Shown: one piece after another, positions 13,126 to 52,240 of the stretch | Numbering within the stretch: the first letter of the stretch is position 1 | Layout of the letters: every line of letters begins with the position of its first letter | Assembly (NCBI RefSeq): GCF_004010195.1 | Contig: NC_057718.1 | Location: 76,407,642 to 76,471,641, forward strand | Origin: Chiloscyllium plagiosum | Lineage: Eukaryota | Direction: 5' to 3' | DNA: 64,000 nt | The notes under the pieces: generated by a model | The model's database searches: none | What the model was told of the DNA's origin: nothing | What the model saw: the letters and a program-made list of their open reading frames with translations, nothing else | Made by a program: the position numbers and the translations under genes

Positions 13126-15457
13126 TCCCTCCCTTTTAAGTCGGCAGACATAGAGCAGTTCCTTTTCTTGTAGCTCCTTCTGTGGCATTTTGGCAACAGG
13201 TCATGTCCTTCTGTCACTGCCTTGGATACAGGCAAATATAATAGCTCGCCTTTTGTGCCTGGAGTATCTCGGAAGAAATTCTGCAAATCCCATGCCCATC
13301 TCAAATTCCGAGATCTCTTCAACACTTGATAGAGAGAGAGAACCCAATGGTTCTGCAGTCTTTCCAACTATTCCGAGGAGCTGGGCCCATTTTGCTCCCA
13401 GACAGTTTGCAGCTTTCATGTGGTCCACGTGCTTGTTCAGCATCATTGCGCATACCCAAACTTTATATGTCACTGGACCAGGCATCATATCGTCCATGCC
13501 TCCTAACCATACAGGGCCATTCTCATGGTTCCTACATCAAACTTCTTCCCTTGAGGTAAACTGTTCTCTCTCAGTTAGTGGAGTCTTCTGGCCGGCACTG
13601 GCGTTCCTGCTGCTGTTTCATTCACCTCCTCCAGGACTGGGAAGATCAGATTTAATCCGGTGCAGAGTCTTCTCCTCATTAGCAACATTGCTGGAGCTAA
13701 TTCTTTAGTGGTATGAGTGGCAATCTTATAATCAAATAGGAACCAGGACAGTTCAGTATCTAGTGAAGCTGTAGGCTGTTTCTTTAAGCTTGCCTTCAAA
13801 AGTTTAGACTGCTCTTTTTGCCAGGCCATTGGATGATGAATGGTATGGAGCTGTCTTTATATGTCAAATGTCATTGGGCTTTAGGAAATACTCAAATTCC
13901 CTGCTGATAAACGATGGCCTATTATCTGAGACCAACATTCCAGGGAGCCCATGAATTGCAAAGGATGCATGCAGTTTTTTTTTATCATCGTCTCCGTGTT
14001 TGACAAATGAACTTTATGCATATCCAACCACTTTGAGCAGGTGTCCACAGTAACAAAGAACATTGAGCCCAAGATGGACCTGCATGGTCGATGTGTAACC
14101 AAATCCAGGGTTTATCTGGCCATTCCCACAAATGTTGGAGAGTTGCTGGTGGTAACTATTGTCCTTGTTGATACTCTGGGCTATGCCCCACCAATATGGC
14201 TGTGTCTGCATCCACCTGTGGCCACCAGGCATAATTTCTCACCAACATCTTCATTTTGGAAACCTTGGATGACCCTAGTAGAGTTGAGCCAGTATCTGAG
14301 TGGTAACATGTGCTCAGAACAACTACTCTTCCTCTCCACAATAATATGCACTCCTCTATTGTGATCTGGTCTCTCCTGTTCAAAAGGCTTCAGTTCTAGT
14401 TATGACCGTCTTTTAGTTTTCCCCATCAACACCAACCATATCAGTTTTACCAGGACTGGATCTTTCTGTGTCCATAGTCTGATATTGTCGGCTGTGACTG
14501 GAAGTGTGTCCAGAACATATAAAACTATTACAAACTCTTCCAATGGCAGTACCACTTGCAGTGTATCTGCCAGTGGAAGGTAGCTTAATGCAAAGGCATT
14601 CATTACTTGGCCTCCGGGACAGCTACAACTTGTAATTATACACACTTGGTATCAGAGTCCACTGCTGAATTCAGCCTGAAGCTATGGATGGCACTACCTT
14701 TCCTCTTCAAGTAGACGTAGTAGGGATTTGTGGTCCATTATAATGACAAATTTTCATCTGTAAAGGTATTGGGGGAACTTCCTGACTTCAAATATGACCA
14801 CCAAACCTTTCTTCTTTATCTGTATTTACTCTCTGCACTAGCCTAAGTCTCGGATGCATACCCTATTGGACACTCCTCCCCATTGGGTCACCTATGAACT
14901 AATACTACCCTGATGGCATACAGGGAGGTATCACATGTCAATACCAGATCATTGTGTATCAATACCTTAGAGGATGACAGATGTTTCTTCACTTCCCTGG
15001 AAGCTATGGCTTGGCTGCATGACCATTTCCATTGCTGATCCTTTTTTAGGGGTTGATGTGAAGTTTCCAGGATGGAAAGTATGAACTTTTCATAATAATT
15101 CACATGCTCAAGGAAAGACCTAAGCTCCGATGTAGGCGTGGGAGCTGGGGCACTTTTGATCGTCTTCACGTTATCTTTTAATGGGTCTAACCCAGTCTTG
15201 TTGACTTTGTAGCCCAAGCACTTGGGATGCCTGTAACAGACATTGTTCCCTTCTTAGGCATATGTCTGCTTGGGAGAATACATCTAAGGACTACATCCAA
15301 GTTTTCTAAATGCTCGTTATTGATCTTCCCAGTTATTGGCACGTGATCTAGATAAATGGTGACCTGGGGTAGACCCTGAAAAATGTTCTCCATCACCCGA
15401 TGAAAAAGTGTATAGGCTGACAATATTCCAAATGGCAGTCTCATATATTGATACAAA

Positions 15458-15552
15458 TTCTGGATTAGAGTTGCTGGAAAAGCACAGCAGTTCAGGCAGC
15501 ATCCGAGGAGCAGTAAAATCGACGTTTTGGGCAAAAGCCCTTCATCAGGAAT
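15458..15552 (-). mobile_element. PLE 3'-end piece with hammerhead core, inserted in the Gypsy RT
   Basis: Splits INTHKGL|YQYMRLPFG. Minus strand reads CCTGATGAAGGGCTTTTGCCCAAAACGTCGA. Confidence 0.85.
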
Positions 15553-16576
15553 GCAAACCTTTATGGGTATTAATTATAGCATACTTATGGGAATCCTCAT
15601 CTAACTGCAATTGTAATGACACATGGCTCATATCCAGCTTTGTGAAGGACAACTCTCCTGCTAGCTTTGCATATAAATCTTCTATGCGAGAGATTGAATA
15701 TTTATCCAGCTGGAAAAAGCAGTTTGCTGTTTGTTTAGTATCCCTACAAAGACAAACTGACCTGTGGGCTTCAAAATTGGTATGATGGGTACTGCCCATT
15801 GCACGAACTAGACTGATTTGATGATTCCTTTGCTTTCCAACTTTTTGATTTCTGCCTCTACTTTTGCCCAAAAGGCAAATGGCACTGGGCACGCCTTGCA
15901 GAATTATGGAATTGCGTCTTAGTCAATACCTTTGATAGTCCCTAGACCTTCCTGGAACACTTCCGGGTATTTAATTAGGATTTCACTAAGGCAATCATTT
16001 TCTAATCGAAAAATGTTGAGCCAATTTAAGTGAATCTCACTCAACCAATTTCGCCCCATCAAACCTGGTTAAAGCCTTTTACTATAGTCACTGGTAATGG
16101 AACTAGCTGCTTTCCATAAAAGAGTGGAACTGAACTGTAAAGGTTCCCCAGTATAGGTTCTCAGTCTAGCCCAGGTCTTACATAAGTTAAAGGGTTTGAG
16201 TTCAGAACGAGTTTTGTTCAAGATTGATTCTGCAATCACTGATACAGCCACCCGGAATTGACCTCCATTAGAACCAGATGACCATTGAACCAAACATTTA
16301 TTTTGATTGGACCTGATTTGGATGTTGTTAAACAACTTATGTAGGTGAACTTCCTGGTGTGTGCACACTCCTGGATACTGACCTATGTGTTCTCTTAATC
16401 CATTTAGGTTTGGCAGGACTCCTTTGCTGTCATGAGTCTGCCTACCGGCAGCAACTACAATGACTTGCCACCCTGGACCCTAAAGAAAATTTTAACCTTT
16501 TGGCCAAGGCTTGGTTTTGTTTTAGGGTTTTACTTGGGCTGACCTAGAGTCCCTTTGTTCAGAATATATCCTGAGT

Positions 16577-30718: not shown

Positions 30719-31026
30719 ATAAAGGCAGAGAGCCTGAAGCGTGGAGAGATAAGCTAGAGGAGGGTAGGGGTGGGGAGAGAGTGGCATAGAGTACAATAGG
30801 TAAGTGGGGAAGGAGATGAAGGTGATAGGTCAGGGAAGAGAGGGTGGAGTGGATAGGTGGAAAAGGAGCTGGGCAGGTCGGACAAGTCCGGACAGGTCAG
30901 GGGACCGAGTTTCTGGAGGTTAGAAGCTAGGATGAGGTGGGGGAAGGGGAAATGAGGAAACTGTTAAAATCCACATTGATGCCCTGGGGTTGAAGTGTTC
31001 CGAGGCGGAAGATGAGACGTTCTTCC

Positions 31027-31831
31027 NNNNNNNNNNNNNNNNNNNNNNNNNNNNNNNNNNNNNNNNNNNNNNNNNNNNNNNNNNNNNNNNNNNNNNNNNN
31101 NNNNNNNNNNNNNNNNNNNNNNNNNNNNNNNNNNNNNNNNNNNNNNNNNNNNNNNNNNNNNNNNNNNNNNNNNNNNNNNNNNNNNNNNNNNNNNNNNNNN
31201 NNNNNNNNNNNNNNNNNNNNNNNNNNNNNNNNNNNNNNNNNNNNNNNNNNNNNNNNNNNNNNNNNNNNNNNNNNNNNNNNNNNNNNNNNNNNNNNNNNNN
31301 NNNNNNNNNNNNNNNNNNNNNNNNNNNNNNNNNNNNNNNNNNNNNNNNNNNNNNNNNNNNNNNNNNNNNNNNNNNNNNNNNNNNNNNNNNNNNNNNNNNN
31401 NNNNNNNNNNNNNNNNNNNNNNNNNNNNNNNNNNNNNNNNNNNNNNNNNNNNNNNNNNNNNNNNNNNNNNNNNNNNNNNNNNNNNNNNNNNNNNNNNNNN
31501 NNNNNNNNNNNNNNNNNNNNNNNNNNNNNNNNNNNNNNNNNNNNNNNNNNNNNNNNNNNNNNNNNNNNNNNNNNNNNNNNNNNNNNNNNNNNNNNNNNNN
31601 NNNNNNNNNNNNNNNNNNNNNNNNNNNNNNNNNNNNNNNNNNNNNNNNNNNNNNNNNNNNNNNNNNNNNNNNNNNNNNNNNNNNNNNNNNNNNNNNNNNN
31701 NNNNNNNNNNNNNNNNNNNNNNNNNNNNNNNNNNNNNNNNNNNNNNNNNNNNNNNNNNNNNNNNNNNNNNNNNNNNNNNNNNNNNNNNNNNNNNNNNNNN
31801 NNNNNNNNNNNNNNNNNNNNNNNNNNNNNNN
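31027..31831. other. Assembly gap (others at 36191-36541, 37641-38101, 48176-48192, 49917-50202)
   Basis: Runs of N, all inside young PLE or CR1 copies. Confidence 0.99.
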
Positions 31832-32429
31832 CCCCTTTGGTCTGGAGGAATTGGGAGGATTCAAAGGAGAAATTGTTAAGGGTGAGGACCAGTTCGGCCA
31901 AACGAATGAGAGTGTCGGTGGAGGGGTACTGTTGGGAACGTCTGGAGAGGAAAAAACGGAGGGCTTGGAGGCCCTGGTCATGGCGGATGGAGGTGTAGAG
32001 GGATTGGATATCCATGGTGAAGATGAGGTGTTGGGGGCCGGGGAAACGGAAGTCTTGGAGGAGGTGGAGGGCGTGGGTGGTGTCTCGGACGTATGTGGGG
32101 AGTTCCTGGACTAGGGGGGATAGGACAGTGTCGAGGTAGGTAGAGATGAGTTCAGTGGGGCAGGAGCATGCTGAGACAATGGGTCGGCCAGGGTGGTCAG
32201 GCTTGTGGATGTTGGGAAGGAGGTAGAACCGGGCAGTGCGGGGTTCCCGGACTATGAGGTTGGAAGCTGTGGGTGGGAGATCTCCTGAGGTGATGAGGTT
32301 GTGTATGGTCTGGGAGATGATGGTTTGGTGATGGGGGGTGGGGTCATGGTCAAGGGGGCGGTAGGAAGAGGTGTCCTCGAGTTGGCGTTTGGCTTCAGCG
32401 ATGTAGAGGTCAGTGCGCCAGACTACCAC
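31832..32429 (-). CDS. Penelope-like reverse transcriptase (partial; continues into the N gap)
   Basis: Uninterrupted frame of about 199 codons with PLE RT motifs. Confidence 0.85.
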
Positions 32430-32444
32430 TGCGCCCCCTTTGAT

Positions 32445-33060
32445 ACTTTCTCAGCATCTAATGCTCAATATCATTGCATTCTTGGGACCTGTTCCTAAAT
32501 GTCTGGGTATTTGCATAATGTATTACTCAATATCAGAGAATTCTCAGCATCAGTTATTCAATCTTAACACATTCTCAAGATACAGTGCTGAATGTGAGCA
32601 GTATTGTAACATCAGTTGTTGAATTCAGGCCATTTCAGCACCTGTTATTCAAGGTCTGATCATTCTGAGGATATAATGTCCTGGTCAGACATTCTGAGAA
32701 TGTATATAGATCAATGCACTATCAGTATCTATTACTTAATGTTAAAAATTATCTCAGGATATACTGTTCTACATCAGGTCAATCAAAGCATCAATTATTA
32801 AAAACAAAGCGTGATAAGTATCAATTGCTCAGTGTCAAAATATTTTCATTATCTATTGATCTATCTCTGGATAGATTAAGACATATAGTTTGATGCCAGG
32901 ACAATCTCTGTACCTGTGGCTCTACTTTGATAAGCTGCATCACTCAATATCAGTGCATTATCAGGATGCATATCTCAATATTCAATTTGCAGGATGATTT
33001 CTCAACATCATTGCATTCTAAGGATACATTCCTCAATATGAGCACAGTTTCCAGCACATT
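32445..33060 (+). repeat. Degenerate 31-bp tandem array, segment 2
   Basis: Repeated CTCAATATCA(G/T)TGCATT(C/A)T(C/A)AGGAT(G/A)CAT. Confidence 0.75.
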
Positions 33061-38300: not shown

Positions 38301-39387
38301 ACGAGATTAGATCTCATGGAGTACAGGGAGAACTAGCCATTTGGATACAGAACTGGCTCAAAAGTAGAAGACAGGGTGGTGGTGGAGGGTTGTTTTTCAG
38401 ACTGGAGGCCTGTGACCAATGGATTGCCACAACGATCGGTGCTGGGCCCTCTACATTTTGTCATTTACATAAATGATTTGGATGTGAGCATAAGAGGTAC
38501 AGTTAGTAAGTTTGCAGATGATACCAAAATTGGAGGTGTAGTGAACAGCGAAGAGGGTTACCTCAGATTACAACAGGATGGGCCAATGAGCTGAAAAGAG
38601 TTTAATTCAGATAAATGTGAGGTGCTGCATTTTGGGAAAGCAAATCTTAGCAAGACTTATACACTTAATGGTGATGTCCTTGGGAGTGTTACTGAACAAA
38701 GAGACCTTGGAGTGCAGGTTCATAGCTCCTTGAAAGTGGACTCGCAGGTAGATAGGATAGCGAAGCGTTTGCTATGCTTTCCTTTATTGGTCAGAGTATT
38801 GAGTACCAGGAGCTGGGAGGTCATGTTGTGGCTGTACAGGACATTGGTTAGGCCACTGTTGGAATATTGCGTGCAATTCTGGTCTCCTTCCTATCGGAAA
38901 GATGTTGTGAAACTTGAAAGGGTTCAGAAACAATTTACAAGGATGTTGGTAGGGTTGGAGGATCTGAGCTACAGAGGGAGGCTGAACAGGCTGGGGTTGT
39001 TTTCCCTGGAGTGTCGGAGGCTGAGGGGTGACCTTATAGAGGTTTACAAAATTGTGAGGGGTATGAATAGGATAAATAGACAAACTCTTTTCCCTGGGGT
39101 TGGGGAGTCCAGAACTAGAGCGCATAGGTTTAGGGTGAGAGGGGAAAGGTATAAAAGACACCTAAGGGGCAACGCTTTCATGCAGAGGGTGGATACGTGT
39201 ATGGAATGAGCTGCCAGAGGATGTGGTGGAGGCTGGTACAATTGCAACATTTAAGAGGCATTTGGATGGGTATATGAATTGGAAGGGTTTGGAGGGCAGG
39301 GGAGACTAGGTTGGGTTGGGATATCTGGTTGGCATGGACGGGTTGGACTGAAAGGTCTGTTTCCATGCTGTACATCTCTATGACTAT
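35344..39387 (+). mobile_element. Full-length CR1 LINE (5' UTR, ORF1, ORF2 EN-RT, tail), inactivated
   Basis: ORF1 start MAFAVICTSCQMWE at 35923. Endonuclease YFNARG..., IIAITETWL, VGDFNFP. RT MDFSKAFDKVPH and SKFADDTK. 8-bp TSD AAATGCTG at 35336-35343 and 39388-39395. Stops and frameshifts present. Confidence 0.93.
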
Positions 39388-41656: not shown

Positions 41657-41749
41657 TGACCCTGTCAGGAGCTATACTTCAGACAGTTTAGCTCATTGTT
41701 CCTAGGCACGCACAAGCCTCGCCACCACAACAAGGTCACTATCAATGCT

Positions 41750-42499
41750 CAGGCAGGATGCATTGCTTAGTATTGGTGCATTTTCCAGATGTATTACTCA
41801 ATATCAGTAGATTGTTAGTATCCTTTGCTCAATAACAGTCATTCTCTAGACAAATTGTTCAATATCGTTGTATTATCTGTGTACATTACTCAAAATCAAT
41901 GCATTCTTGAGATGCATTTCTCAATTTCAGTCAATTATTTAGATGTAATCCTCAATATGATGCCTTTACTGGAACATTTGCTCAACACTGGTGCATTCAT
42001 AGGATTAATTGCTCAATATTGACACATTTTTAGGATGTATTGCTCAATATCAGTATTCATTGTTTCATATCAGTGTGATTGCAGGATGCATTACTTAATA
42101 TCGATAATTTCTCTGAATGCATTTTTCAACATTAGTATATTCTCAGCTTCCATTGGTCCACTTCATTCTCTGGATGCATTGTCCATTATCAGTCTGCAGA
42201 TGCATTGCTGATTTTCAAGGTAACGTGATGTGTTGTTCAATATCAGCCATTCTCCAGATACATTGTTTAATATCATTTGTTGCTGAATATTGCTTAATAT
42301 TCACACGGTGCATGAATCCCTTGGTCAATATCAGTGCATTTGGAGAATGCATAACTTAATAACTGCATTCTCAGGTTGCATTCCTCAATGTCAATGTATT
42401 TGCACTATGCATTGCTCTGTATTAGTACATTTTCCTGATGTATCAATCAACATCAATGCATTCTCAGGATCCACTGTTCCATAGTGGTGCATTTGCAGA
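41750..42499 (+). repeat. Degenerate 31-bp tandem array, segment 3
   Basis: Consensus about CTCAATATCAGTGCATTCTCAGGATGCATTG. Confidence 0.85.
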
Positions 42500-42957
42500 T
42501 ATCTTGGATCACAGAGTGTATCCAAGCGATTCTTTTGGATTTGGTTAAATGCAAATAAGACGTGACAACAGAAATTGCTTAAATATGAATGATTATTAAG
42601 TAATAATAAAAGATGTAAAAGGAAAGAGAACACAATAATAAATTATGATAAAGGAAGGAGAAGAAACAATAGGCCTCACACACATCTGCATGTCAGGGAT
42701 GCCATAATCGATGCCTGGTTTGAAAAGTCAGGTTTGTTCCTGGCACCGCTAGCGATCCCGGTCCAAAGTGAAGTCCAGCCACTTGGAGCAAAACTCTCTC
42801 TCTCTCTCTCTTAGACAGTGTAACAAACAGCCTGCACAGAAAAAACAAGCTGCTGGCGCTGTCTGCGGCCCACAAAGGAGGGTTCACAGGACTCATTCAA
42901 GGTCATGCAGCTGTCAAATATCATCAACAATTTTCACTCTTCAGCCCATCCTATACA
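42500..42957 (-). repeat. ERV 3' LTR (458 bp)
   Basis: Plus strand TATCTTGGATCACAGAGTGT...GCCCATCCTATACA, homologous to 45951-46340. Confidence 0.9.
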
Positions 42958-43199
42958 ATCCACCCTGAAGATATTTGACAGCAAGTGTTACAATTACAAA
43001 TGCAGGCGCAAAGCAGCGATAGCCACACGAGAATGCAGAACAAGCATATGTAACCTACAACAGAAAATTAAAACTAGAATGAAAATGACCATCACCAATT
43101 TGAATAATACAACAATAGGGCGTATCATCAAAGTAATGAAATTAAGTACAGCAGCTGCCAACTGCAGTATCTGTCCATAATAAATTAATATGGTTCATG

Positions 43200-43500
43200 T
43201 CATATAGGTGGGCAATCTTTGACAACTCATTCTCTTTAAGTTAACTTCACTTTGGTACTGCCTGCCCCAATATCAGTAGCCAATAGGTATCATGGACAAT
43301 TATCTCATCAGGTTTTGGAGGGTTTTGTGGGTGGCCCCCTGCGCAAAGGCCTTTGGATGTTGTAAGTTTACTGGGAGGATGTAACTGGTCACCTCCTTTA
43401 AACATTCGGCTCATGAGTGTCCCACCTTTCAGAATATTCAGATTATACAATGCCTATGGCAACACTTTGAGCCACAGCTGTAATTTATGGTTAGGTGGAC
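43200..43500 (-). pseudogene. Probable integrase C-terminal remnant
   Basis: PQNPPKPDEIIVHDTYW resembles the class III integrase C-terminus. Position fits the end of pol. Confidence 0.5.
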
Positions 43501-43502
43501 TT

Positions 43503-43704
43503 CAGGTGGCTAGATTTTACCTCGGACCGGGATCGCTAGCGGTGCCGGGAACAAACCTGACTTTCCAAACTGGCCATCGATTATGGCATCCCTGACATGC
43601 AGACGTGTGTGAGGCCTATTGTTTCTTTTCCTTCCTTTATCATCATTTATTATTGTGTTCTCTTTCCTTTTACATCTTTTATTATTACTTAATAATCATT
43701 CATA
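43503..43704 (+). repeat. Inverted internal copy of an LTR segment
   Basis: Reverse complement of 42584-42785. The shared peptide GPGSLAVPGTNLTFQT appears in opposite-strand ORFs 42693-42896 and 43353-43595. Confidence 0.92.
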
Positions 43705-44042
43705 ACAGTCACAGCTGGCATACCAAAAGGGAATTTGCCTAATGGGGTTTGCAAGGTGGTCCCTCTTAATAAGTCCATACCGATAATATTTTCTGGTATG
43801 TTGGATATCAATACTGGGACCACTAGTGGGGCCCATCCCCCAAAACTACTCTAATATTTATTCTAATTGCCAGTGTTACTGCCCCACCAAATCCCTTAAT
43901 AGTCATTTTAAGCCCTATATATCTATGTGGATTGCTGTGTATAATAGTAACTTCTACCCCAGTGTCTAGTAGTGCAATATCTCTTGTACATTGCCTTTCC
44001 TCTGATAAACGGTGGTAGGGACATGAGGCGTTGGGTCTCCAG
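43705..44042 (-). pseudogene. pro: Retroviral aspartic protease pseudogene (ERV-L-like)
   Basis: GDPTPHVPTTVY...KGNVQ-IALLDTGVEVTIIHSNP...IKGFGG...PVLISNIPENIIGMDLL. LLDTG at 43958-43972; two frameshifts. Confidence 0.88.
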
Positions 44043-44049
44043 TCTTACT

Positions 44050-45920
44050 CAGACCCCAGAATCCCTCCTCACCCTTAATTGATTGGCTGGCTGGTTCAAC
44101 ACAACTGCCCACCCTCCCCCATGCTCGGGCAGAGTGATGTTGTGGGAGATGTAGTCGCTTTGGTTTCCTTTCCTCCCTCCACATCTGAAGAGCAGTGCAT
44201 CCTCCACATATTGTACATAGGTATTCTATGTATCTTACTCCTCTCTATTCCTGCTTTCAATAATTCTGCGAACATTTCTCTTCTGGTTATCTTTTCACCT
44301 TCAAAACCACCCCACCTCTACCTTGTTGTCCCTGTTTGTGCTTGCTCGAGTGGGCCTCACTCTTTGCTTACCAGCCTCCATATCCTCTAACTGTCCCAAC
44401 AACAAGCATATTTGTCCCACTGCCTGTCCATGGGCTGGTCCTAATTGAGCTAATAGGGCACTTCTCATCCAGCCCAGACCATGTCACATTAGCCCGGTTC
44501 CTCATTCCGGCTGTGAAAGCTTCCTGGTCAGGACCCTGAAACTGTCAAGATTACATACCCCGCTTATGTAGCCAAATCCTTCAAACATTTTATACCTCTG
44601 GAATGCTCTCTCTCATTTTACAACATCACCTTCCCAATCTATCAGAGAAGGGAACTTGTTTGCTACTGCTTGTGTCAGTGCATTACATAACAATCCAGTC
44701 TGCCCTACTTTTCTAAAATCACTACTCACATGTGAACCAACACTTAATGCTCCCAGATTTCCTTACTCTGTAGAACTCAACATAACGTGGTGACACACCG
44801 GTCCCATAACCACATCAACCAAGAGGCCAAGGGTTCACTGGGGATTTTTGCTTAAAGCGTGACCCCAAGTCCTGCAACTCAGACATAGACTGATCTCTCA
44901 CTATTCTCGAATTTTGTGGGTATTGTCCTCCTATTTGTTTTGCCTTATTTGTTATTAGGGGTCATGCTGTTAGTCCCTTTCCTGAGGATGGCTCCGGAGG
45001 TGCAGCATCCCCTCCCCCATCTGTCCATTTATACTCTGAATCAGACAAATACCAAATTGGGGCGGCACGGTGGCACAGTGGTCAGCACTGCTGCTTCACA
45101 GCACCAGAGACCCGGGTTCAATTCCCGACTCAGGCGACTGACTGTGTGGAGTTTGCACATTCTCCCTGTGTCTGCGTGGGTTTCCTCCGGGTGCTCCAGT
45201 TTCCTCCCACAGTCCAAAGATGTGCAGGTTAGGTGAATTGGCCATGCTAAATTGCCCGTAGTGTTAGGTAAAGGGGTAAATTAGGGGAATGGGTGGGTTG
45301 CGCTTCGGCGGGTCGGTGTGGACTTGTTGGGCCGAAGGGCCTGTTTCCACACTGTAAGTAATCTAATCTAATCTAATCTCCATCCCAATGGTCAGGGTCC
45401 CACTGTGATGTTAATAATGTGCACACTTTGACTGGGTCAAATTTCCAAATGCACGTTTTGTTCTCTCTTTCTGTTGTACCATTGCCAAATGACATACTAC
45501 CTGGTTCTGTTTCTCCTCCCACCTTCTCAGCTCTCTCCTGCGCTGAGCAAACTGTGTCTGTTAGAGCGATGTTACGCTGGTTTACCATCATCAATACGGC
45601 TCAAGCTGCCTGTTCTTGGTCTAACACTGTTCCAATTTCCTACACATAGAACACAAAGCTTTTAACAATATCCATCCTATTTGCAGCACACTGTCCTTGC
45701 TTTTGGGGAAGCCCGCTTCCTGCAAACACTCATGTATGGCAGCAAGTATAAATAACCTTCCTTTCTCTCTTTCTCCAGTTATTATTGTCCCCCACTCTTC
45801 CAAGGATCCTAACTGTGCTAACAGATTAGCTACAGACCCAAATGCAGAGTTTGTCACATTTCATCCTGGAACATGGAAGGTCTCCAGAGCATTAGGCTGC
45901 CTTTCCCTTCTCTTAAACAT
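44050..45920 (-). pseudogene. gag: ERV-L/Fv1-type gag pseudogene, split by a SINE
   Basis: VKVCTLLTSQWDPDHWDGD|IW; ELQDLGSRFKQK-PSEPLASWLMWLWD (MHR-like); QGPDQEAFTAGMRN; ITRREMFAELLKAGIERSKIHRIP. No CCHC knuckle seen. Confidence 0.82.
45058..45372 (+). mobile_element. tRNA-derived SINE (HE1/V-SINE type), full length
   Basis: A box TGGCACAGTGG, B box GGTTCAATTCC, central TGTGTGGAGTTTGCACATTCTCCC, CR1-like 3' part and (AATCT)n tail. Confidence 0.93.
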
Positions 45921-45928
45921 TTTCCCAA

Positions 45929-45946
45929 ATCCCATCGTCATCGTGA
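45929..45946 (-). promoter_or_regulatory. Degenerate primer-binding site, tRNA-Ser(GCU)-like
   Basis: TCACGATGACGATGGGAT matches TGGCGACGAGGATGGGAT (complement of the vertebrate tRNA-Ser-GCU 3' end, from memory) at 14/18 positions, 4 nt from the 5' LTR. Confidence 0.5.
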
Positions 45947-45950
45947 AGAA

Positions 45951-46340
45951 TGTCTTGGATCACAGAGTGTTTCCAACTGGTTCTTTGGTTAAATGTAATT
46001 AAGAGAAGGCTCGACATCAGCAATTTGCTTCGATATGAACATTTATTAAGTAATAATAAAAAATGGAAGAGAAAGGAAAAACACAATAATAAAATTGTTG
46101 ATGACTGGTCTAGAGGGTTAGGCTCAGTCCTGGGACCATTCATGATCCTAGTCCAAGGTGAAGTCCCGCCACTTGTAATGAAGCTCTCTCTCTCTTAGAC
46201 AGTGTGACAAACAGCCTGTATAGAAAAACAAGCTGCTGGTGCTGTCTGTGGCCCACAAAAGAATGTTCACTGGACTTATTCATGGTCATGCAGCTGTCGA
46301 ATATCATCCACAATTTTCTTCCTTCGGCCCATCCTATACA
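45951..46340 (-). repeat. ERV 5' LTR (390 bp)
   Basis: Plus strand TGTCTTGGATCACAGAGTGT...GCCCATCCTATACA. Minus-strand AATAAA at 46042-46047. Confidence 0.9.
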
Positions 46341-46345
46341 GCAGA

Positions 46346-46725
46346 ATGAACGCTCAATATCAGTGCATTCCCTGGATAGATTGCTCCGCATTCATTGTTT
46401 CTGGATATATTGCTCAATATCAGTGCATTTTCCAAGTCCGTTGCTCAGAATCAATGCGTTCTTAAGATGCATTGCTTAATATCGGTGTATTCTCTAAATG
46501 TATTACTCAATATTACTGTACTATTAGAATGTAGTAGTCAATGATAGTGCATTCTCCACATGAGTTACTCAATATTAGTGGATTCACTGCACACACTGCA
46601 CAATTTCAATACAATGTGCTGCTCAATATCAGTACAATCTCTGAATGTATTGTTCAATGTCATTGCATTCACTAAATCTGCTGGTCAATGTCAATGCATT
46701 CATTAGGACCATTGCTTAATATTAG
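46346..46725 (+). repeat. Degenerate 31-bp tandem array, segment 4
   Basis: T(G/A)CT(C/T)A anchors at 46411, 46442, 46473 and 46504 (period 31). Confidence 0.9.
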
Positions 46726-48390
46726 TGGGAAGGAAAAGCCAGAGAACTATAGACCAGTGAGTCTGATGTCAATGCTGGGCAAGCTGTTGGAGGGGATCCT
46801 GAGGGATAGTATTTATGTACATTTGGAAAGGCAAGGACAGATTAGGATTAGTTGACATGGCTTTTTTGCATGGGAACTCATGTCTCACAAACTTGATTGA
46901 GGTTTTGAAGAAGTTACAACAAGAATTAATGAGGGCAGAGTGATGGATGCGACCTTCAGTAAGTCGTTCAACAAAGTTCCTCATGGTAGACTCGTTAGCA
47001 AGATTAGATCTCATGGAATACAGGCAGAACTAGCCATTTTGAAACAGAACTGGCTTGAAGGTGGAAGACAAAAGGTGATGATGGAGGGTTATTTTTCAGA
47101 CTGGAGGCCTGTGGCCAGTGGTGTGCCACAAGAATTGGTGCTGGGTCCACTGCTTTTCATCATCTTATATAAGTGATTTGGATGTGAATATAGGAGGTAT
47201 GGTTAATAAGTTTGCAGATGACACCAAGATTGGAGGTGTAGTGGACCAGCAAAGAAGGTTATCTCAGAGTATAACAGGACCTTGATCAGATGGGCCAATT
47301 GGCCGAAGAGTGGCAGGAGTTTAGATTAGATTAGATTACTTAGAGTGTGGAAACAGGCCCTTCAGCCCGACAAGTCCACATCGACCCTCCGAAGAGTAAC
47401 CCACCCAGACCCATTCCCCTACATTTACCCCTTACCTAACATTATGGGCAATTTAGCATGGCCAATTCACCTAACCTGCACATTTATGGACTATGGGAGG
47501 AAACCAGAGCAACCGGAGGAAATCCACACAGACACGGGGAGAATGTGCAAACTCCACACAGACAGTTGCGTGGAGGCGGGAATTGAACCCGGACCTCTGG
47601 CGCTGTGAAGCAACTGTGCTAACCACTGTGCCACCGTGCTGCCAAATTTAGATTAAATGTGACTTGCTGCATTTTGGAAAGGCAAATTATGGCAGGACTT
47701 ATACACTTAATGGTGAGATACTGGGGAATGTTGCTGAACAAAGAGACCTTGGAGTGCAGATTCATAGCTCCTTGAAAGTGGAGTCACAGGTAGATAGGAT
47801 AGTGAAGAAGGCGTTTGGTATGGTTGCCTCTATTGGTCAGTGCATTGCATATCAATTTTAGGAGGTCGTGTTGCGGCTGTACAGGACATTGGTTAGGTAA
47901 CGTTTGGAATACTGCATGCAATTCTGGCCTCCTGCTGTAGGAAGGATGTTGTGAAACTTGAAAAGAGTTCAGAAAAGATTTACAAGAATTTTGTCAGGAT
48001 TGAAGGGTTTGAACTATAGGATGAGCTGAATAAGCTAGGACTATTTTTTCTGGAGGATTGACGGCTGAGGAGATGTTAATAAAATCATGAGGGCATGGAT
48101 AGGGTGAATAGCCAAGGTCTTTTCTCCAGGGTAGGGGAGTCCAAAACTAGAGGGTATAGGTTTAGGGTAAGAGGGNNNNNNNNNNNNNNNNNGCTGCCAG
48201 AGGAAGTGGTGGAGGTTGGTACAATTGCAACATTTCAAAGGCATCTGGATGGGTATATAAATAGGAAGGGTTTAGAGGGATATGGACCAAATGCTGGCAA
48301 ATGGGACTAGGTTAACTTAGGCTATCTGTTTGGCATGCACGATTTCGACCGAAGGATCTGTTTCCATGCTGTACATCTCTGTAACTCTAC
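46726..48390 (+). mobile_element. 5'-truncated CR1 LINE containing a SINE
   Basis: NYRPVSL...FSKSFNKVPH...GVPQELVLGP...KFADDTK, with CR1 tail. Confidence 0.92.
47322..47644 (-). mobile_element. HE1-type tRNA SINE
   Basis: Reverse complement of 45058-45372, with (TTAGA)n tail. Confidence 0.92.
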
Positions 48391-48610
48391 AATGCGTTCA
48401 CAGGATGCTTTACTCAATATCAATGCATTGCTGCTATATGCAGTGCTGATATCAGTGAATTTGCTGGAGGTATTGCTCAATATCAATGCATTCTCCGGCT
48501 ATATGGTTGAGTTTCTGTACATTGTCCTATTGCATTGCTCAATATTATATTCTCTGGATGCATTGTTCAATATCGGTACTTTCACAGGATATATTGCTCA
48601 ATGATAGTTA
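48391..48610 (+). repeat. Degenerate 31-bp tandem array, segment 5
   Basis: CTCAATATCAATGCATT repeats resume directly after the CR1 tail. Confidence 0.85.
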
Positions 48611-49479
48611 GTTTTGTAGAAGTTGTACTAAAGGTGCCTTAAAAATAAAAAGATAAAGCTTTTAGCTAAAAATTACAGGTGTTACTTGATTCAAACAAGT
48701 ACAGATAAGACAGAAGAGTACTTATATGAAGCAAATCCAAATAAGCTTCTGTGGCATATTAATTGGACCCTTTTTTTGAGTTCCTTATTGCTGAAGTGAG
48801 GAGGTAAATCTTGAAGCAGCTGCATTGGTTCCTGTAGTTTATATAGTTGGTATCTCATTGTACAGGTAGTAACAATTTCCGAGTGGGAGGGAACAATCCT
48901 GGTTTCTGGTTCTGTGGGCTTACCAGTTTTAGCTGCCTTTTGTTGCTTTCTACAACAGACCATTAACTAGATCAAGATATCTCTCTCTTTCATTCTGGAG
49001 ATGAGTTTCTTACAAATTCTTCAAGGTGGAATCTCTCATTGTCGCAGCACCTTGACTTTTTTATATCACTTAATGCTTGCAAGCTAAGATGAACATTGTT
49101 ACCAGGTACCTTTGCAAAAAGTTAACTCACAGGCTTTGAAAGCATTCCAGAAACAGCCTTTCTTCCACCTGTTGTTCTTAGCTTTTGCTGTGGTTAATGC
49201 CCAACTTACATTCCAATAATGTGTCATGAATTAAGGTGGTGTTACCTAAATAAAAGCAAAATACTCTGGATGCTGACAATTTGAAATAAAAATATTATCT
49301 TCTGGAGAGAATATTTTACATATCTGGGCATGTCTCAGTAATCCACTTCGAGCTTGGATTTGAGTAGTGTTTTTATTTTCTGGTGTCCAATTACAGTCAG
49401 ATCAACATTTTTCCTAAATTTTGCAGTATTTAAAATCTCTTTTTTCCTAAAATTTATCACATAATCACACAATCATTAC

Positions 49480-49720
49480 AATGGCATTCTCAGCATCTAT
49501 TGTTAAATAACAAGCCATTTTTTAACAATAATTGCTGAATAACAGGGCATACTCAGAATCCATTGCTCATGTCAGGGCAATTACAATCCCTATTGGTTGA
49601 GATTGTGGCAATCCAGTCATTATAGCTGAATGTCAGTGTTTCTCAGCATCTAGTACTCAAAGTCAAGGCCTTCTCAAAATATGTCGCTGAATTTCTCACC
49701 ATTTTAAGCATCCATTGCAA
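49480..49720 (+). repeat. Degenerate 31-bp tandem array, segment 6
   Basis: GGCATTCTCAGCATCTATTG-like units. Confidence 0.6.
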
Positions 49721-49764: not shown

Positions 49765-50498
49765 AGATTGGAGTGGTGCTGGAAAAGCTCAGCAGTTCAG
49801 GCAGCATCCGAGGAGCAGTAAAATCGACGTTTCAGGCAAAAGCCCTTCGTCAGGAATACAGGCAGAGAGCCTGAAGGGTGGAGAGATAAATGAGAGGAGG
49901 ATGGGGGTGGGGAGAANNNNNNNNNNNNNNNNNNNNNNNNNNNNNNNNNNNNNNNNNNNNNNNNNNNNNNNNNNNNNNNNNNNNNNNNNNNNNNNNNNNN
50001 NNNNNNNNNNNNNNNNNNNNNNNNNNNNNNNNNNNNNNNNNNNNNNNNNNNNNNNNNNNNNNNNNNNNNNNNNNNNNNNNNNNNNNNNNNNNNNNNNNNN
50101 NNNNNNNNNNNNNNNNNNNNNNNNNNNNNNNNNNNNNNNNNNNNNNNNNNNNNNNNNNNNNNNNNNNNNNNNNNNNNNNNNNNNNNNNNNNNNNNNNNNN
50201 NNNCAGATACGGCGGAGGCGGAGGAATTGGGAATACGGGATGGCATTTTTGCAGGAGGTAGGGTGGGAAGAGGTATAATCCAGGTAGCTGTGGGAGTCAG
50301 TGGGTTTGTAAAAAATGTCGGTGTCAAGTCGGTTAATGGAGATGGAGAGGTCCAGGAAGGGGAGGGACGTGTCAGAGATGGTCCAGGTAAATTTAAGGTC
50401 AGGATGGAATGTGTTAGTGAAGTTGATGAATTGCTCAACCTCCTCGCGGGAGCACGAGGTGGCGCCAATGCAGTCATCTGCGGTCATTGTTTTTACTT
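49765..50498 (-). mobile_element. Penelope-like fragment with inverted terminus, spanning a gap
   Basis: RT peptide DDCIG...FHPDLKFTW...LPFLDL...FYKPTDSHSYLDYTSSHP. Hammerhead CTGACGAAGGGCTTTTGCCTGAAACGTC. 11-bp TSD ACACAGATAAT at 49754-49764 and 50499-50509. Confidence 0.92.
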
Positions 50499-50509
50499 AC
50501 ACAGATAAT

Positions 50510-52240
50510 GTCCTGGGAACTCAGGTTTGAATCCCGCCATGACAGATGGTGGAATTTGAATTCAATTTTTAAAAAAAGTTTGGAATTAAGAATGTACCGG
50601 TTAAAAATTCATCTGATTCAGTAATGTCCTTCAGGGAAGGAAATCTGCTATCTTCACCTGGTCTGGCTGACATGTGACTCCAGATACACAGCAATGTGGT
50701 TGACCCTCAATTGCCCTCTGAAATATTTGGCCTAACAAGCCATTCAGTTGTATGAATTGTTACAAAGTCTCTCCAAACCCAATACCACTTCCATGTAGAA
50801 GGACAAGGGCAGCAGATATATGGAAAACACCACCACCATCAAGTTTCTCTCCAAGTCAATCACCATCCTGACTTTGAAATATATTGTTGTTCCTTCACTT
50901 TTGCTGGGTCAAAATCCTAGAATTCCCCCCTAATGGCGTTCGACAAGATTCTCCATGGGAGACTGATCTCATGGAATATAGGGAGAAATAGCCATTTGGA
51001 TACAGAACTGACTCAAAGGTAGAAGACAGAGAGTGGTGGTGGAGGGTTGTTTTTCAGACTGGAGGCCTATGACCAGTGGAGTGCCACAAGGATCGGTGTT
51101 GGGTCCTCTACTTTTTGTCATTTACATAAATGATTTGGATGCGAGCATAGGAGGTACAGTTAGTAAGTTTGCAGATGACACCAAAATTGGAGGTGTAGTG
51201 GACAGCGAAGAGGGTTACCTCAGATTACAACAGGGTCTTGACCAGATGGGCCAATGGGCTGAGAAGTGGCAGTTGATGTTTAATTCAGATAAATGTGAGG
51301 TGCTGCATTTTGGGAAAGCAAATCTTAGCAGGACTTATACACTTAATGGTAAGGTCCTAGGGAGTGTTGCTGAACAAAGAGACCTTGGCATGCAGGTTCA
51401 TAGCTCCTTAAAAGTGAAGTCACAGGTAGATAGGATAGTAAAGAAGGCGTTTGGTATGCTTTCTTTTATTGGTCAGAGTATTGAGTACAGGAGTTGGGAG
51501 ATCATATTGCGGCTGTACAGGATATTGGTTAGACCACTGTTGGAATATTGTGTGCAATTCTGGTCTCCTTCCTATCGGAAAGATGTTGTGAAACTTGAAA
51601 GGGTTCGGAAAAGATTTACAAGGATGTTGCCAGGGTTGGAGGATTTGAACTGTAGGGAGAGGCTGAACAGGCTGGGGTTATTTTCCCTGGAGCGTCGGAG
51701 GCTGAGGGGTGACCTTATAGAGGTTTACAAAATTATGAGGGGCATGGATAGGGTAAATAGACAAAGTCTTTTCCCTGGGTTCGGGGAGTCCAGAACTAGA
51801 GGGCATAGGTTTAGGGTGAGAGGGAAAGATAGAATAAAGACCTAAGGGGCACCTTTTTCACACAGAGGGTGGTACAGCTATGGAATGAGCTGCCAGAGGA
51901 AGTGGTGGAGGCTGGTATAATTGCAACATTTAAGAGGCATTTGGATGGGTATGAATAGGAAGGGTTTGGAGGGATATGGGCCGGGTGCTGGCAGATGGGA
52001 CTAGATTGGGTTGGGATATCTGGTCGTCATGGACGGATTGGACTGAAGGGTCTGTTTCCATGCTGTACATCTCTATGACTCTATGACTCTATAATGGCAT
52101 TATGGGTCAACCCAGAGCAGGTGGACTGCAGCAGTTCAAGAAAGCAGCTCACCATCATCTTCTCAAGGGCAAGAAGGGACAGGCTATAAATGCTGGCCAC
52201 CAGTGATGCCCATGTCCCACAAAATGAATAAATATAAAAA
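50510..52240 (+). mobile_element. L2-tailed SINE / L2 3' fragment split by a CR1
   Basis: B-box-like GGTTTGAATCC; CTTCAGGGAAGGAAATCTGC; tail ATAAATGCTGGCC...GAATAAA. Confidence 0.7.
50938..52091 (+). mobile_element. Young 5'-truncated CR1 with a 270-aa open RT frame (51033-51845)
   Basis: GVPQGSVLGPLLFVIYINDL...SKFADDTK...LEYCVQFWSP. (CTATGACT)n tail. 7-bp TSD TAATGGC at 50931-50937 and 52092-52098. Confidence 0.96.

What the first reader, a model, noticed from the sequence alone, without database searches (positions are those of the whole stretch)
42500..46340. Class III (ERV-L/ERV-S-like) endogenous retrovirus in a shark-like genome, largely hidden from the ORF track
Seen: two LTRs, an exact 5-bp TSD (GCAGA), and, after stitching frameshifts and removing a SINE, four collinear Gag blocks (VKVxxLxxxxWDPxxWDGDIW; ELxxxxxxFKQKxxExxxxWLxxLWD; GPDxxxFTxxMRN; TRxEMFxxLLxxGIxRxxIxxxP) plus a protease (KGNxQ-xALLDTGxExTIIxxNP...PVLISxIPExIIGMDLL). 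Established: these blocks, the lack of a Gag zinc knuckle and the 5-bp TSD are typical of MuERV-L/HERV-L and Fv1. Inference: this lineage is best known from amniotes, so a cartilaginous-fish member could be an undescribed family and an outgroup for ERV-L/Fv1 Gag.
Basis: partly seen in the sequence, partly recalled or inferred. Interest (0 to 1): 0.85.

Follow-up and report, generated by a model that had tools for sequence, protein, structure and literature searches.

The report
Dead shark ERV-L-like retrovirus copy
This is a real but long-dead, gutted copy of an ERV-L/ERV-S-like retrovirus in a shark genome, and its family was already reconstructed from the whale shark in 2018, so the identification is right but the lineage is not new.

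Summary
Observation confirmed: two LTRs (about 83% identical), a 5-bp TSD, and all Gag and protease motifs in order on the minus strand. This copy has lost RT, RNase H and most of IN and env. Sibling copies carry RT(YIDD)-tether-RNase H-IN, closest to foamy/MLV and far from Ty3. The family has a tRNA-Ser(GCT) PBS, no dUTPase match, no zinc knuckle in the gag frames, and a broken env. It is a class III (clade Huo) ERV. Novelty is refuted: whale-shark Rh_ty_ERV3 (Xu et al. 2018, PMC6001957) shares an exact 26-mer with this copy and is listed beside HERV-L, MuERV-L and HERV-S in their tree (labels only). Related Gags occur in rays, teleosts, amphibians, reptiles, birds and a marsupial; an outgroup position is not shown. 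Two extras that my paper searches did not find described: an Env without gamma-type TM motifs, and a more abundant non-autonomous chimera using the same LTRs. Two sequence look-ups in this scan's notes found nothing similar.

The parts
42495..42499 (.). target-site duplication, left copy (5 bp)
42500..42957 (-). 3' LTR (458 bp)
   Evidence: 408 first-look candidates in the genome, 40 scored
42958..42970 (-). short G-rich tract at the polypurine-tract position (weak)
   Evidence: sequence just before the 3' LTR; PPT role inferred from position
42967..43139 (-). env 3' stub: membrane anchor and tail, broken
   Evidence: 75% identical to the env end of env-bearing sibling L018; hydrophobic anchor at 43128
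43140..43228 (-). env 5' stub and deletion junction (about 1.6 kb of env missing); junction shared with siblings L014 and L016; limits approximate
43229..43495 (-). end of the integrase core and IN C-terminal piece, broken
   Evidence: DNA match to the IN 3' end of siblings, whose IN has Pfam rve hits
43500..43704 (+). inverted copy of part of this locus's 3' LTR, sitting where RT, RNase H and most of IN are deleted
   Evidence: 93% to the 3' LTR (K2P 0.078), 75% to the 5' LTR
43701..44040 (-). aspartic protease (DTG), frameshifted; upstream limit approximate
   Evidence: tblastn with P0001 and P0004, E 1.5e-6 to 4.5e-16; motifs
44050..45057 (-). gag 3' part (capsid-like region and C-terminal block), frameshifted and with stops
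   Evidence: tblastn with P0007 E 3.6e-39 and P0008 E 1e-25; exact 26-mer shared with Rh_ty_ERV3
45059..45379 (+). tRNA-like SINE inserted into gag (host repeat; limits approximate)
   Evidence: three other copies in the window, 76-90% identical; 'tRNA-like' is read by eye
45376..45920 (-). gag 5' part, starting about 10 nt after the PBS
   Evidence: tblastn: P0004 residues 3-85 at 45920-45654; P0007 residues 23-97
45929..45946 (-). primer-binding site for tRNA-Ser(GCT)
   Evidence: 14/18 match here, 18/18 in sibling L023, against the host's own tRNA-Ser(GCT) gene
45951..46340 (-). 5' LTR (390 bp; lacks a stretch of about 57 bp present in the 3' LTR)
46341..46345 (.). target-site duplication, right copy

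Best explanation
A fixed, non-functional provirus of an old class III (clade Huo, ERV-L/ERV-S-like) retrovirus family of carpet sharks, the same family as whale-shark Rh_ty_ERV3. Shown: the family layout is LTR, tRNA-Ser(GCT) PBS, gag without a zinc knuckle, pro, RT, tether, RNase H, IN without dUTPase, env, LTR, with a 5-bp TSD. Inferred: an enveloped ancestor entered the germ line, was primed by tRNA-Ser and integrated by its IN. One env-deleted form kept spreading, since this copy, L014 and L016 share one deletion junction; this could be retrotransposition or complementation in trans. This copy inserted into a 31-bp tandem repeat. Later it lost about 2.4 kb of pol, the gap being filled by an inverted copy of part of its own 3' LTR. 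It also gained a SINE in gag and decayed. It encodes nothing intact.
For: LTRs, TSD and motifs. Gag-pro search: 46 matches from 35 candidates scored; non-self hits 68-86% identical. Pol domains in 7 of 7 sibling loci scanned; RVT_1 of the element itself in 3 of the 7 (L014, L021, L027; the L016 hit lies in an inserted LINE); both a tether-type and a true RNase H. RT against PDB: foamy E 1e-17, MLV-type 2e-16, Ty3 3e-4 to 2e-3. IN best matches PFV, E 2e-15. RT relatives: P0001 57%, stingray models 50% and 46%, a mole model 46%, a Gypsy-like protein 25%. A single-frame sibling Gag gave 98 hits, none with a Pfam retrotransposon-gag domain; 4 of the 30 looked up are named Fv1-like. PBS: 8 of 13 copies match at 13/18 or better with 0 of 500 shuffles reaching it. 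Rh_ty_ERV3: exact 26-mer; by eye 44/51 and 36/49 identical residues in two Gag blocks. LTR pairs with over 200 aligned columns give K2P 0.19-0.21 in 5 of 5 elements, consistent with one old wave.
Against: The window copy has no RT, so its placement rests on siblings. My RT and IN trees had no supported branch and lacked foamy, SnRV, MLV and HERV-L rows. I saw only the label order of Xu et al.'s S2 Fig, not its branches, and only the first 400 letters of Rh_ty_ERV3. No Pfam family hit any window frame. The Fv1-associated model PF17687 found nothing in the genome, but its control also failed to ring. The PBS match was at chance level in 3 of 13 copies and weak in 2. The three LTR pairs with short alignments gave K2P 0.12-0.24.
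Confidence: 0.93

Rival explanations
1. An undescribed family that is the outgroup of all ERV-L/ERV-S/Fv1 Gags.
For: Rh_ty_ERV3 is the first label of the ERV-L/S group in the S2 Fig text. Shark and ray Gags group weakly together, 84/67.
Against: The family is published. The top-scoring non-shark Gags are an unnamed ENA protein and a snake model, ahead of the ray models. The unnamed ENA RT is closer (57%) than the stingray RTs. Xu et al. state that cartilaginous-fish ERVs are not basal in any major clade.
Confidence: 0.12
2. A Ty3/Gypsy LTR retrotransposon (these also make 5-bp TSDs and may lack a zinc knuckle; recalled).
For: 5-bp TSD; no env body in this copy; weak Ty3 RT hits; Retrotrans_gag clusters among the Atlas leads for the stingray relative, 0.85-0.86.
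Against: Tether plus a second RNase H. RT and IN score far better with retroviruses. 25% identity to the Gypsy-like RT against 46-57% to class III-like RTs. Env body in 5 of 14 tails compared.
Confidence: 0.02
3. A co-opted, Fv1-like host gag gene at this locus.
For: Gag relatives carry automatic Fv1-like names. A whale-shark gene model begins with a Gag-derived piece of this family (P0007).
Against: Gag here is split by a SINE, by frameshifts and by stops. The longest stop-free Gag-homologous pieces are under 100 codons. The LTRs and TSD are those of an ordinary provirus.
Confidence: 0.01

Closest known systems
Rh_ty_ERV3, whale shark (Xu et al. 2018, PMC6001957, S2 Data and S2 Fig)
   Same: Same family: exact 26-mer, about 73-86% Gag identity by eye in two blocks, same gag-pro motifs; listed in clade Huo next to HERVL, Murine_ERVL, HERVS, No_fu_ERV1 and Nan_par_ERV9.
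   Different: Their entry is a reconstruction of about 5.3-5.7 kb that begins inside gag; the main text does not name it. LTR, PBS, env type and derivatives are not described in what I could read. Only its first 400 letters were visible.
HERV-S / AviERVIII-type class III ERVs, and XtERV-S (PMC8278194, PMC4724089)
   Same: Ser tRNA PBS, no Gag zinc finger, YIDD and 5-bp TSD as in XtERV-S; env present and no dUTPase as in HERV-S.
   Different: PBS is Ser(GCT), whereas XtERV-S uses Ser(AGA/TGA). XtERV-S has a dUTPase. HERV-S and XtERV-S carry class I (gamma-type) Env, whereas this Env lacks ISD, CWxC and a TM-position CX6CC.
HERV-L / MuERV-L and Fv1
   Same: Class III gag-pol, no zinc finger, 5-bp TSD, YIDD. 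Gag relatives are auto-named Fv1-like.
   Different: ERV-L has a dUTPase and no env. This family shows no dUTPase match in 20 stretches and has an env. Direct Gag comparison with rodent Fv1 or MuERV-L was not possible: no such sequence was fetched.
Batoid class III ERVs (Hemitrygon P0002/P0004; Narcine P0014/P0105)
   Same: Same Gag blocks and Pol architecture.
   Different: A separate lineage: RT 46-50% identical; grouping with the shark family is weak (84/67).

Membership tests
Retroviridae (versus Ty3/Gypsy) | Pol order PR-RT-tether-RNase H-IN, with two RNase H-like domains | tested here: met
   On siblings: L027 has RVT_1, RT_RNaseH_2, RNase_H and rve. The window copy lacks this region.
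Retroviridae (versus Ty3/Gypsy) | env gene between IN and the 3' LTR | tested here: met
   Shared ~1.5-kb region with a fusion-peptide-like stretch and a membrane anchor in L012, L018, L020, L013, L026. Identified by position and motifs; no Pfam or PDB hit.
Class III ERV / clade Huo (ERV-L/ERV-S-like) | RT groups with ERV-L/ERV-S in a tree with named references | tested here: inconclusive
   Own tree unresolved and lacking references. Similarity ranks fit. The published tree lists the same family beside HERVL and HERVS, labels only.
Class III ERV / clade Huo (ERV-L/ERV-S-like) | Gag without CCHC zinc knuckle | tested here: met
   0 hits in the window; 1 stop-containing hit in 12 siblings. Decay could hide a motif, but the intact relatives P0004 and P0008 show none by eye.
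Class III ERV / clade Huo (ERV-L/ERV-S-like) | 5-bp TSD; LTR ends TGT...ACA; YIDD | tested here: met
   TSD and ends; L014 flanks match 4 of 5; YIDD read in L012, L014, L021, L027.
Class III ERV / clade Huo (ERV-L/ERV-S-like) | Gag homologous to ERV-L Gag / Fv1 | tested here: inconclusive
   Indirect only: 4 of 30 looked-up hits named Fv1-like; stingray relative gives an Atlas Fv1 cluster at 0.88, a lead only, and PF17687 at E 0.0039, below cut-off; PF17687 found nothing in the genome.
ERV-L sensu stricto (HERV-L/MuERV-L) | dUTPase at the 3' end of pol | tested here: not met
   P0001 dUTPase found nothing in 20 sibling stretches, while the P0001 IN tail matched 8 of them.
ERV-L sensu stricto (HERV-L/MuERV-L) | no env; tRNA-Leu PBS (the latter recalled) | tested here: not met
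   env present; PBS is Ser(GCT).
HERV-S / XtERV-S type | tRNA-Ser PBS | tested here: met
HERV-S / XtERV-S type | class I (gamma-type) Env with ISD, CWxC and TM CX6CC | tested here: not met
   0 of 5 env-bearing copies have ISD or CWxC; a CX6CC pattern occurs in 3 of 5 but upstream of the fusion peptide. Copies are decayed.
Rh_ty_ERV3 family | high DNA identity over the element | tested here: met
   Only for the visible first 400 letters: exact 26-mer and by-eye identity. The rest was cut from the supplement.
Dfam/Repbase named family | match to a library consensus | not testable with these tools
   Neither library is offered.

The most novel reading that the evidence does not exclude
The family is known, but its Env may be a native class III envelope, not a captured gamma-type one. 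It has a short N-terminal subunit (at most about 230 codons) and about 350-365 codons from fusion peptide to anchor, with no ISD or TM CX6CC, a layout more like foamy Env or paramyxovirus/pneumovirus F (comparison recalled, untested). Vargiu et al. 2016 found only class I Envs on class III ERVs and called the original HERV-L env unidentified. If shark and ray lineages also prove sisters (84/67), this could be an ERV-L/S lineage that has stayed in elasmobranchs since sharks and rays split and keeps the ancestral Env type.
Probability: 0.3. Interest if true: 0.6.

Novelty: already known. Interest (0 to 1): 0.25.

Why it matters
As it stands, little: one more decayed copy of a published shark ERV family. 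It confirms that ERV-L/S-like viruses with Fv1-type Gag are not confined to amniotes, which is in print. It would matter more if the Env proved to be a distinct, ancestral class III envelope, since the original ERV-L envelope is described as unidentified. The abundant chimeric passenger element would be a shark parallel to MaLR or recKoRV.

Tried and rejected
Pfam on nine window frames: no family. Word-index protein searches for Gag: 0 of 4140 candidates for the L011 frame; 1 of 7999 for the stingray Gag. Two scans of viral contigs found no relative, so no foamy, SnRV, MLV or lokiretrovirus sequences were available for a tree. RT and IN trees were unresolved; the RNase H tree only grouped the two shark rows. 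Env: no Pfam family, no meaningful PDB hit, and a single-sequence fold failed with mean pLDDT 31.6, so no fold search was run. No Atlas result exists for the family's own Gag or Env. A PDB search with the intact Gag P0008 gave only antibody noise. I first read the hydrophobic stretch before the 3' LTR as a small accessory ORF; rejected, it is the env anchor. I suspected that the non-autonomous derivative was the RBPMS2-carrying element of note e1-8025832; Pfam found no RRM in 3 loci scanned. Dating: K2P 0.19-0.20 gives about 45 My at 2.2e-9 and about 450 My at 2.2e-10 per site per year (rates quoted in PMC4422223). The epaulette-shark rate is per generation and I found no generation time, so no date is claimed. 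Expression and orthology with the whale shark were not tested. Supplement search of PMC8278194 for shark names: 0 hits in 9 files.
Full report
Observation. The element is on the minus strand between two copies of GCAGA at 42495-42499 and 46341-46345 (chance about 8e-4). The LTRs are 46340-45951 and 42957-42500, 82.5-83.2% identical, K2P 0.19-0.20. The insertion sits in a 31-bp tandem repeat whose period continues across the empty site (0.42 at period 31 against 0.19-0.28 at other periods).

After the 5' LTR lies a PBS for tRNA-Ser(GCT). I found 4 genomic matches to a tRNA 3'-end pattern, all called tRNA-Ser(gct) by ARAGORN. The window matches 14 of 18 bases and sibling L023 18 of 18. Eight of 13 copies reach 13/18 or better with 0 of 500 shuffles as good; 2 are weak and 3 at chance level. 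After the protease, RT, RNase H and most of IN are missing. In their place is a 205-bp inverted copy of this locus's 3' LTR, 93% identical to it and 75% to the 5' LTR, so the rearrangement came well after integration (inference). Then follow the IN C-terminal piece and the two ends of env.

The family. The genome (3.56 Gb) gave 46 gag-pro matches from 35 candidates scored, a lower bound, and 408 LTR candidates of which 40 were scored. I fetched 20 stretches. None showed a long intact retroviral ORF in the list of frames of 150 codons or more. Seven with a pol-sized interval were scanned and all 7 gave Pol domains; L027 shows RT, tether, RNase H and IN. RT scores best with foamy virus (E 1e-17), then MLV-type (2e-16), and Ty3 only at 3e-4 or worse. 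IN scores best with PFV. The P0001 dUTPase found nothing in the 20 stretches, although the P0001 IN tail matched 8. Five of 14 tails compared hold an env body. The window, L014 and L016 share one env deletion junction, L011 has similar break positions, and L017 and L021 have different ones. One env-less form therefore multiplied after the deletion (inference). Five of 5 LTR pairs with over 200 aligned columns give K2P 0.19-0.21; three short alignments gave 0.12-0.24. No date is claimed, because the available rates span tenfold.

Relatives. The RT search gave 5 hits among 264 candidates: an unnamed ENA Pol with dUTPase (57%), two stingray models (50%, 46%), a mole model (46%) and a Gypsy-like protein (25%). 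One natural Gag frame of L011 gave 98 hits among 1.84 billion representatives; none carries a Pfam retrotransposon-gag domain. I looked up 30 of the 98: whale shark, electric ray, snake, turtles, axolotl, frogs, birds, pipefishes, mudskipper and possum, with 8 lacking an organism name. Four are named 'Friend virus susceptibility protein 1-like'; none is a rodent Fv1 or a named placental ERV-L Gag. In a 32-row Gag tree (31 of the proteins held plus L011; midpoint root for drawing only) the shark rows group at 100/99, the two ray rows at 100/99, and the four together only at 84/67. RT and IN trees were unresolved. The link to Fv1 is thus indirect: automatic names, an Atlas lead of 0.88 and a sub-threshold PF17687 hit, the last two on the stingray relative; PF17687 found nothing in this genome.

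What is in print. Xu et al. 2018 (PMC6001957; I read parts 1-2 of 5, passages, the S2 Fig label text, rows of S1 Table, and part 16 of 40 plus searches of S2 Data, where sequences are cut at 400 letters) reconstructed Rh_ty_ERV3 from the whale shark. A 26-nt word of this window occurs once in the held text of that file, in Rh_ty_ERV3. Two Gag blocks are 44/51 and 36/49 identical by eye. In their tree its label stands with No_fu_ERV1, HERVL, Nan_par_ERV9, Murine_ERVL and HERVS at the head of clade Huo; branches were not visible. They state that cartilaginous-fish ERVs are not basal in any major clade. Blanco-Melo et al. (PMC11089739, passages) count 2843 clade III RT loci in 6 chondrichthyan genomes. 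Yedavalli et al. (PMC8278194, passages and section 11; author name recalled) describe a frog class III ERV with Ser PBS, no zinc finger and 5-bp TSD. Vargiu et al. (PMC4724089, passages; author name recalled) give the dUTPase and Env contrasts between HERV-L and HERV-S. Also seen: PMC4422223 (part 1 of 2), PMC4977317, PMC8922424 and PMC13709493 (passages), PMC10587355 (abstract and passages).

How it worked. Shown: anatomy, PBS, domain order, decay. Inferred from general retrovirology: germ-line infection by an enveloped class III virus, tRNA-Ser priming, IN-made 5-bp duplication, further spread of env-deleted genomes, then locus-level damage. It works like ERV-S/ERV-L. It is not ERV-L in the strict sense (no dUTPase, has env, Ser PBS), and it differs from HERV-S and XtERV-S in Env type.

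What may still be new. First, the Env. In L018 the fusion-peptide-like stretch lies about 700 nt after the end of pol, and 1043 nt (L018) or 1093 nt (L012) before the anchor. None of 5 copies has an ISD or CWxC motif, and the CX6CC pattern seen in 3 of 5 lies upstream of the fusion peptide. That is not a gamma-type layout (recalled: gamma TM ectodomains are much shorter). Pfam, PDB and a single-sequence fold gave nothing, so its type is open. Second, 21 of 51 env matches begin at nearly one point near the env end. I fetched 12 of those 21. All 12 have the env tail and LTR, 9 also show the first 40-180 bases of gag after an upstream LTR, and none matches the family's gag-pro or pol; instead they share a different internal sequence. 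In 2 of 3 loci scanned it holds a tether and an RNase H, the latter weakly closest to MLV/XMRV (E 4e-4; protein names read as MLV/XMRV from recall of the entries). It had 648 first-look candidates against 35 for gag-pro and 47 for pol, and LTR K2P 0.15-0.26 in 8 pairs. It looks like a non-autonomous chimera of a known kind (MaLR or recKoRV-like, recalled). Paper searches listed nothing that describes either feature for sharks, but the library lacks most subscription papers, and Dfam and Repbase could not be searched.

Verdict. A correct and skilful identification of an ordinary fossil: real, class III, family already published. Interest 0.25.

Noticed in passing
L035-L046 (e.g. L041:415-5530, L045:440-4509): Abundant non-autonomous chimera: this family's LTRs, gag start and env tail around an unrelated internal sequence with a tether and RNase H fragment weakly closest to gammaretroviral RNase H; 648 first-look candidates. 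L022 seems to hold this internal sequence after its gag piece (C10:15949928-15951941).
   Followed up: partly
L012:5850-8155, L018:2270-4200: Broken env of non-gamma layout with a long TM ectodomain; more env-bearing pieces cluster on contig C20 at 8.0-8.6 Mb.
   Followed up: partly
P0007 (whale-shark RefSeq model named SDCCAG8 homolog): Its first ~250 residues are Gag of this family joined to a CCCAP domain; probably a gene-model artefact, but an exonised Gag piece is not excluded.
   Followed up: no
P0001 and P0008 (unnamed ENA proteins, each on a 6537-bp contig): Intact Pol and Gag of a close class III relative; the dUTPase sits between the IN core and the IN C-terminal piece.
   Followed up: partly
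window 43500-43704: Inverted copy of part of the locus's own 3' LTR fills the pol deletion, with a short locally repeated filler at one junction; looks like templated insertion during break repair.
   Followed up: partly
window 41734-42494, 46346-46727, 48393-48633, 49486-49703: Degenerate 31-bp tandem repeat interrupted by the provirus and by LINE and SINE insertions.
   Followed up: partly
window 14727-15706 (minus): Decayed Gypsy-like RT fragment, tblastn E 3e-10 with P0005.
   Followed up: no
window 30927-32450, 38595-39209, 49789-50496, 51012-51845: ORF pieces that look by eye like Penelope-like and CR1-like LINE reverse transcriptases, several with assembly gaps.
   Followed up: no
P0039, P0070, P0075, P0097, P0101: Database gene models that join this Gag type to unrelated host domains (MACPF, RING, HALZ, RNase H2 subunit); likely mis-predicted, organisms not looked up.
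   Followed up: no
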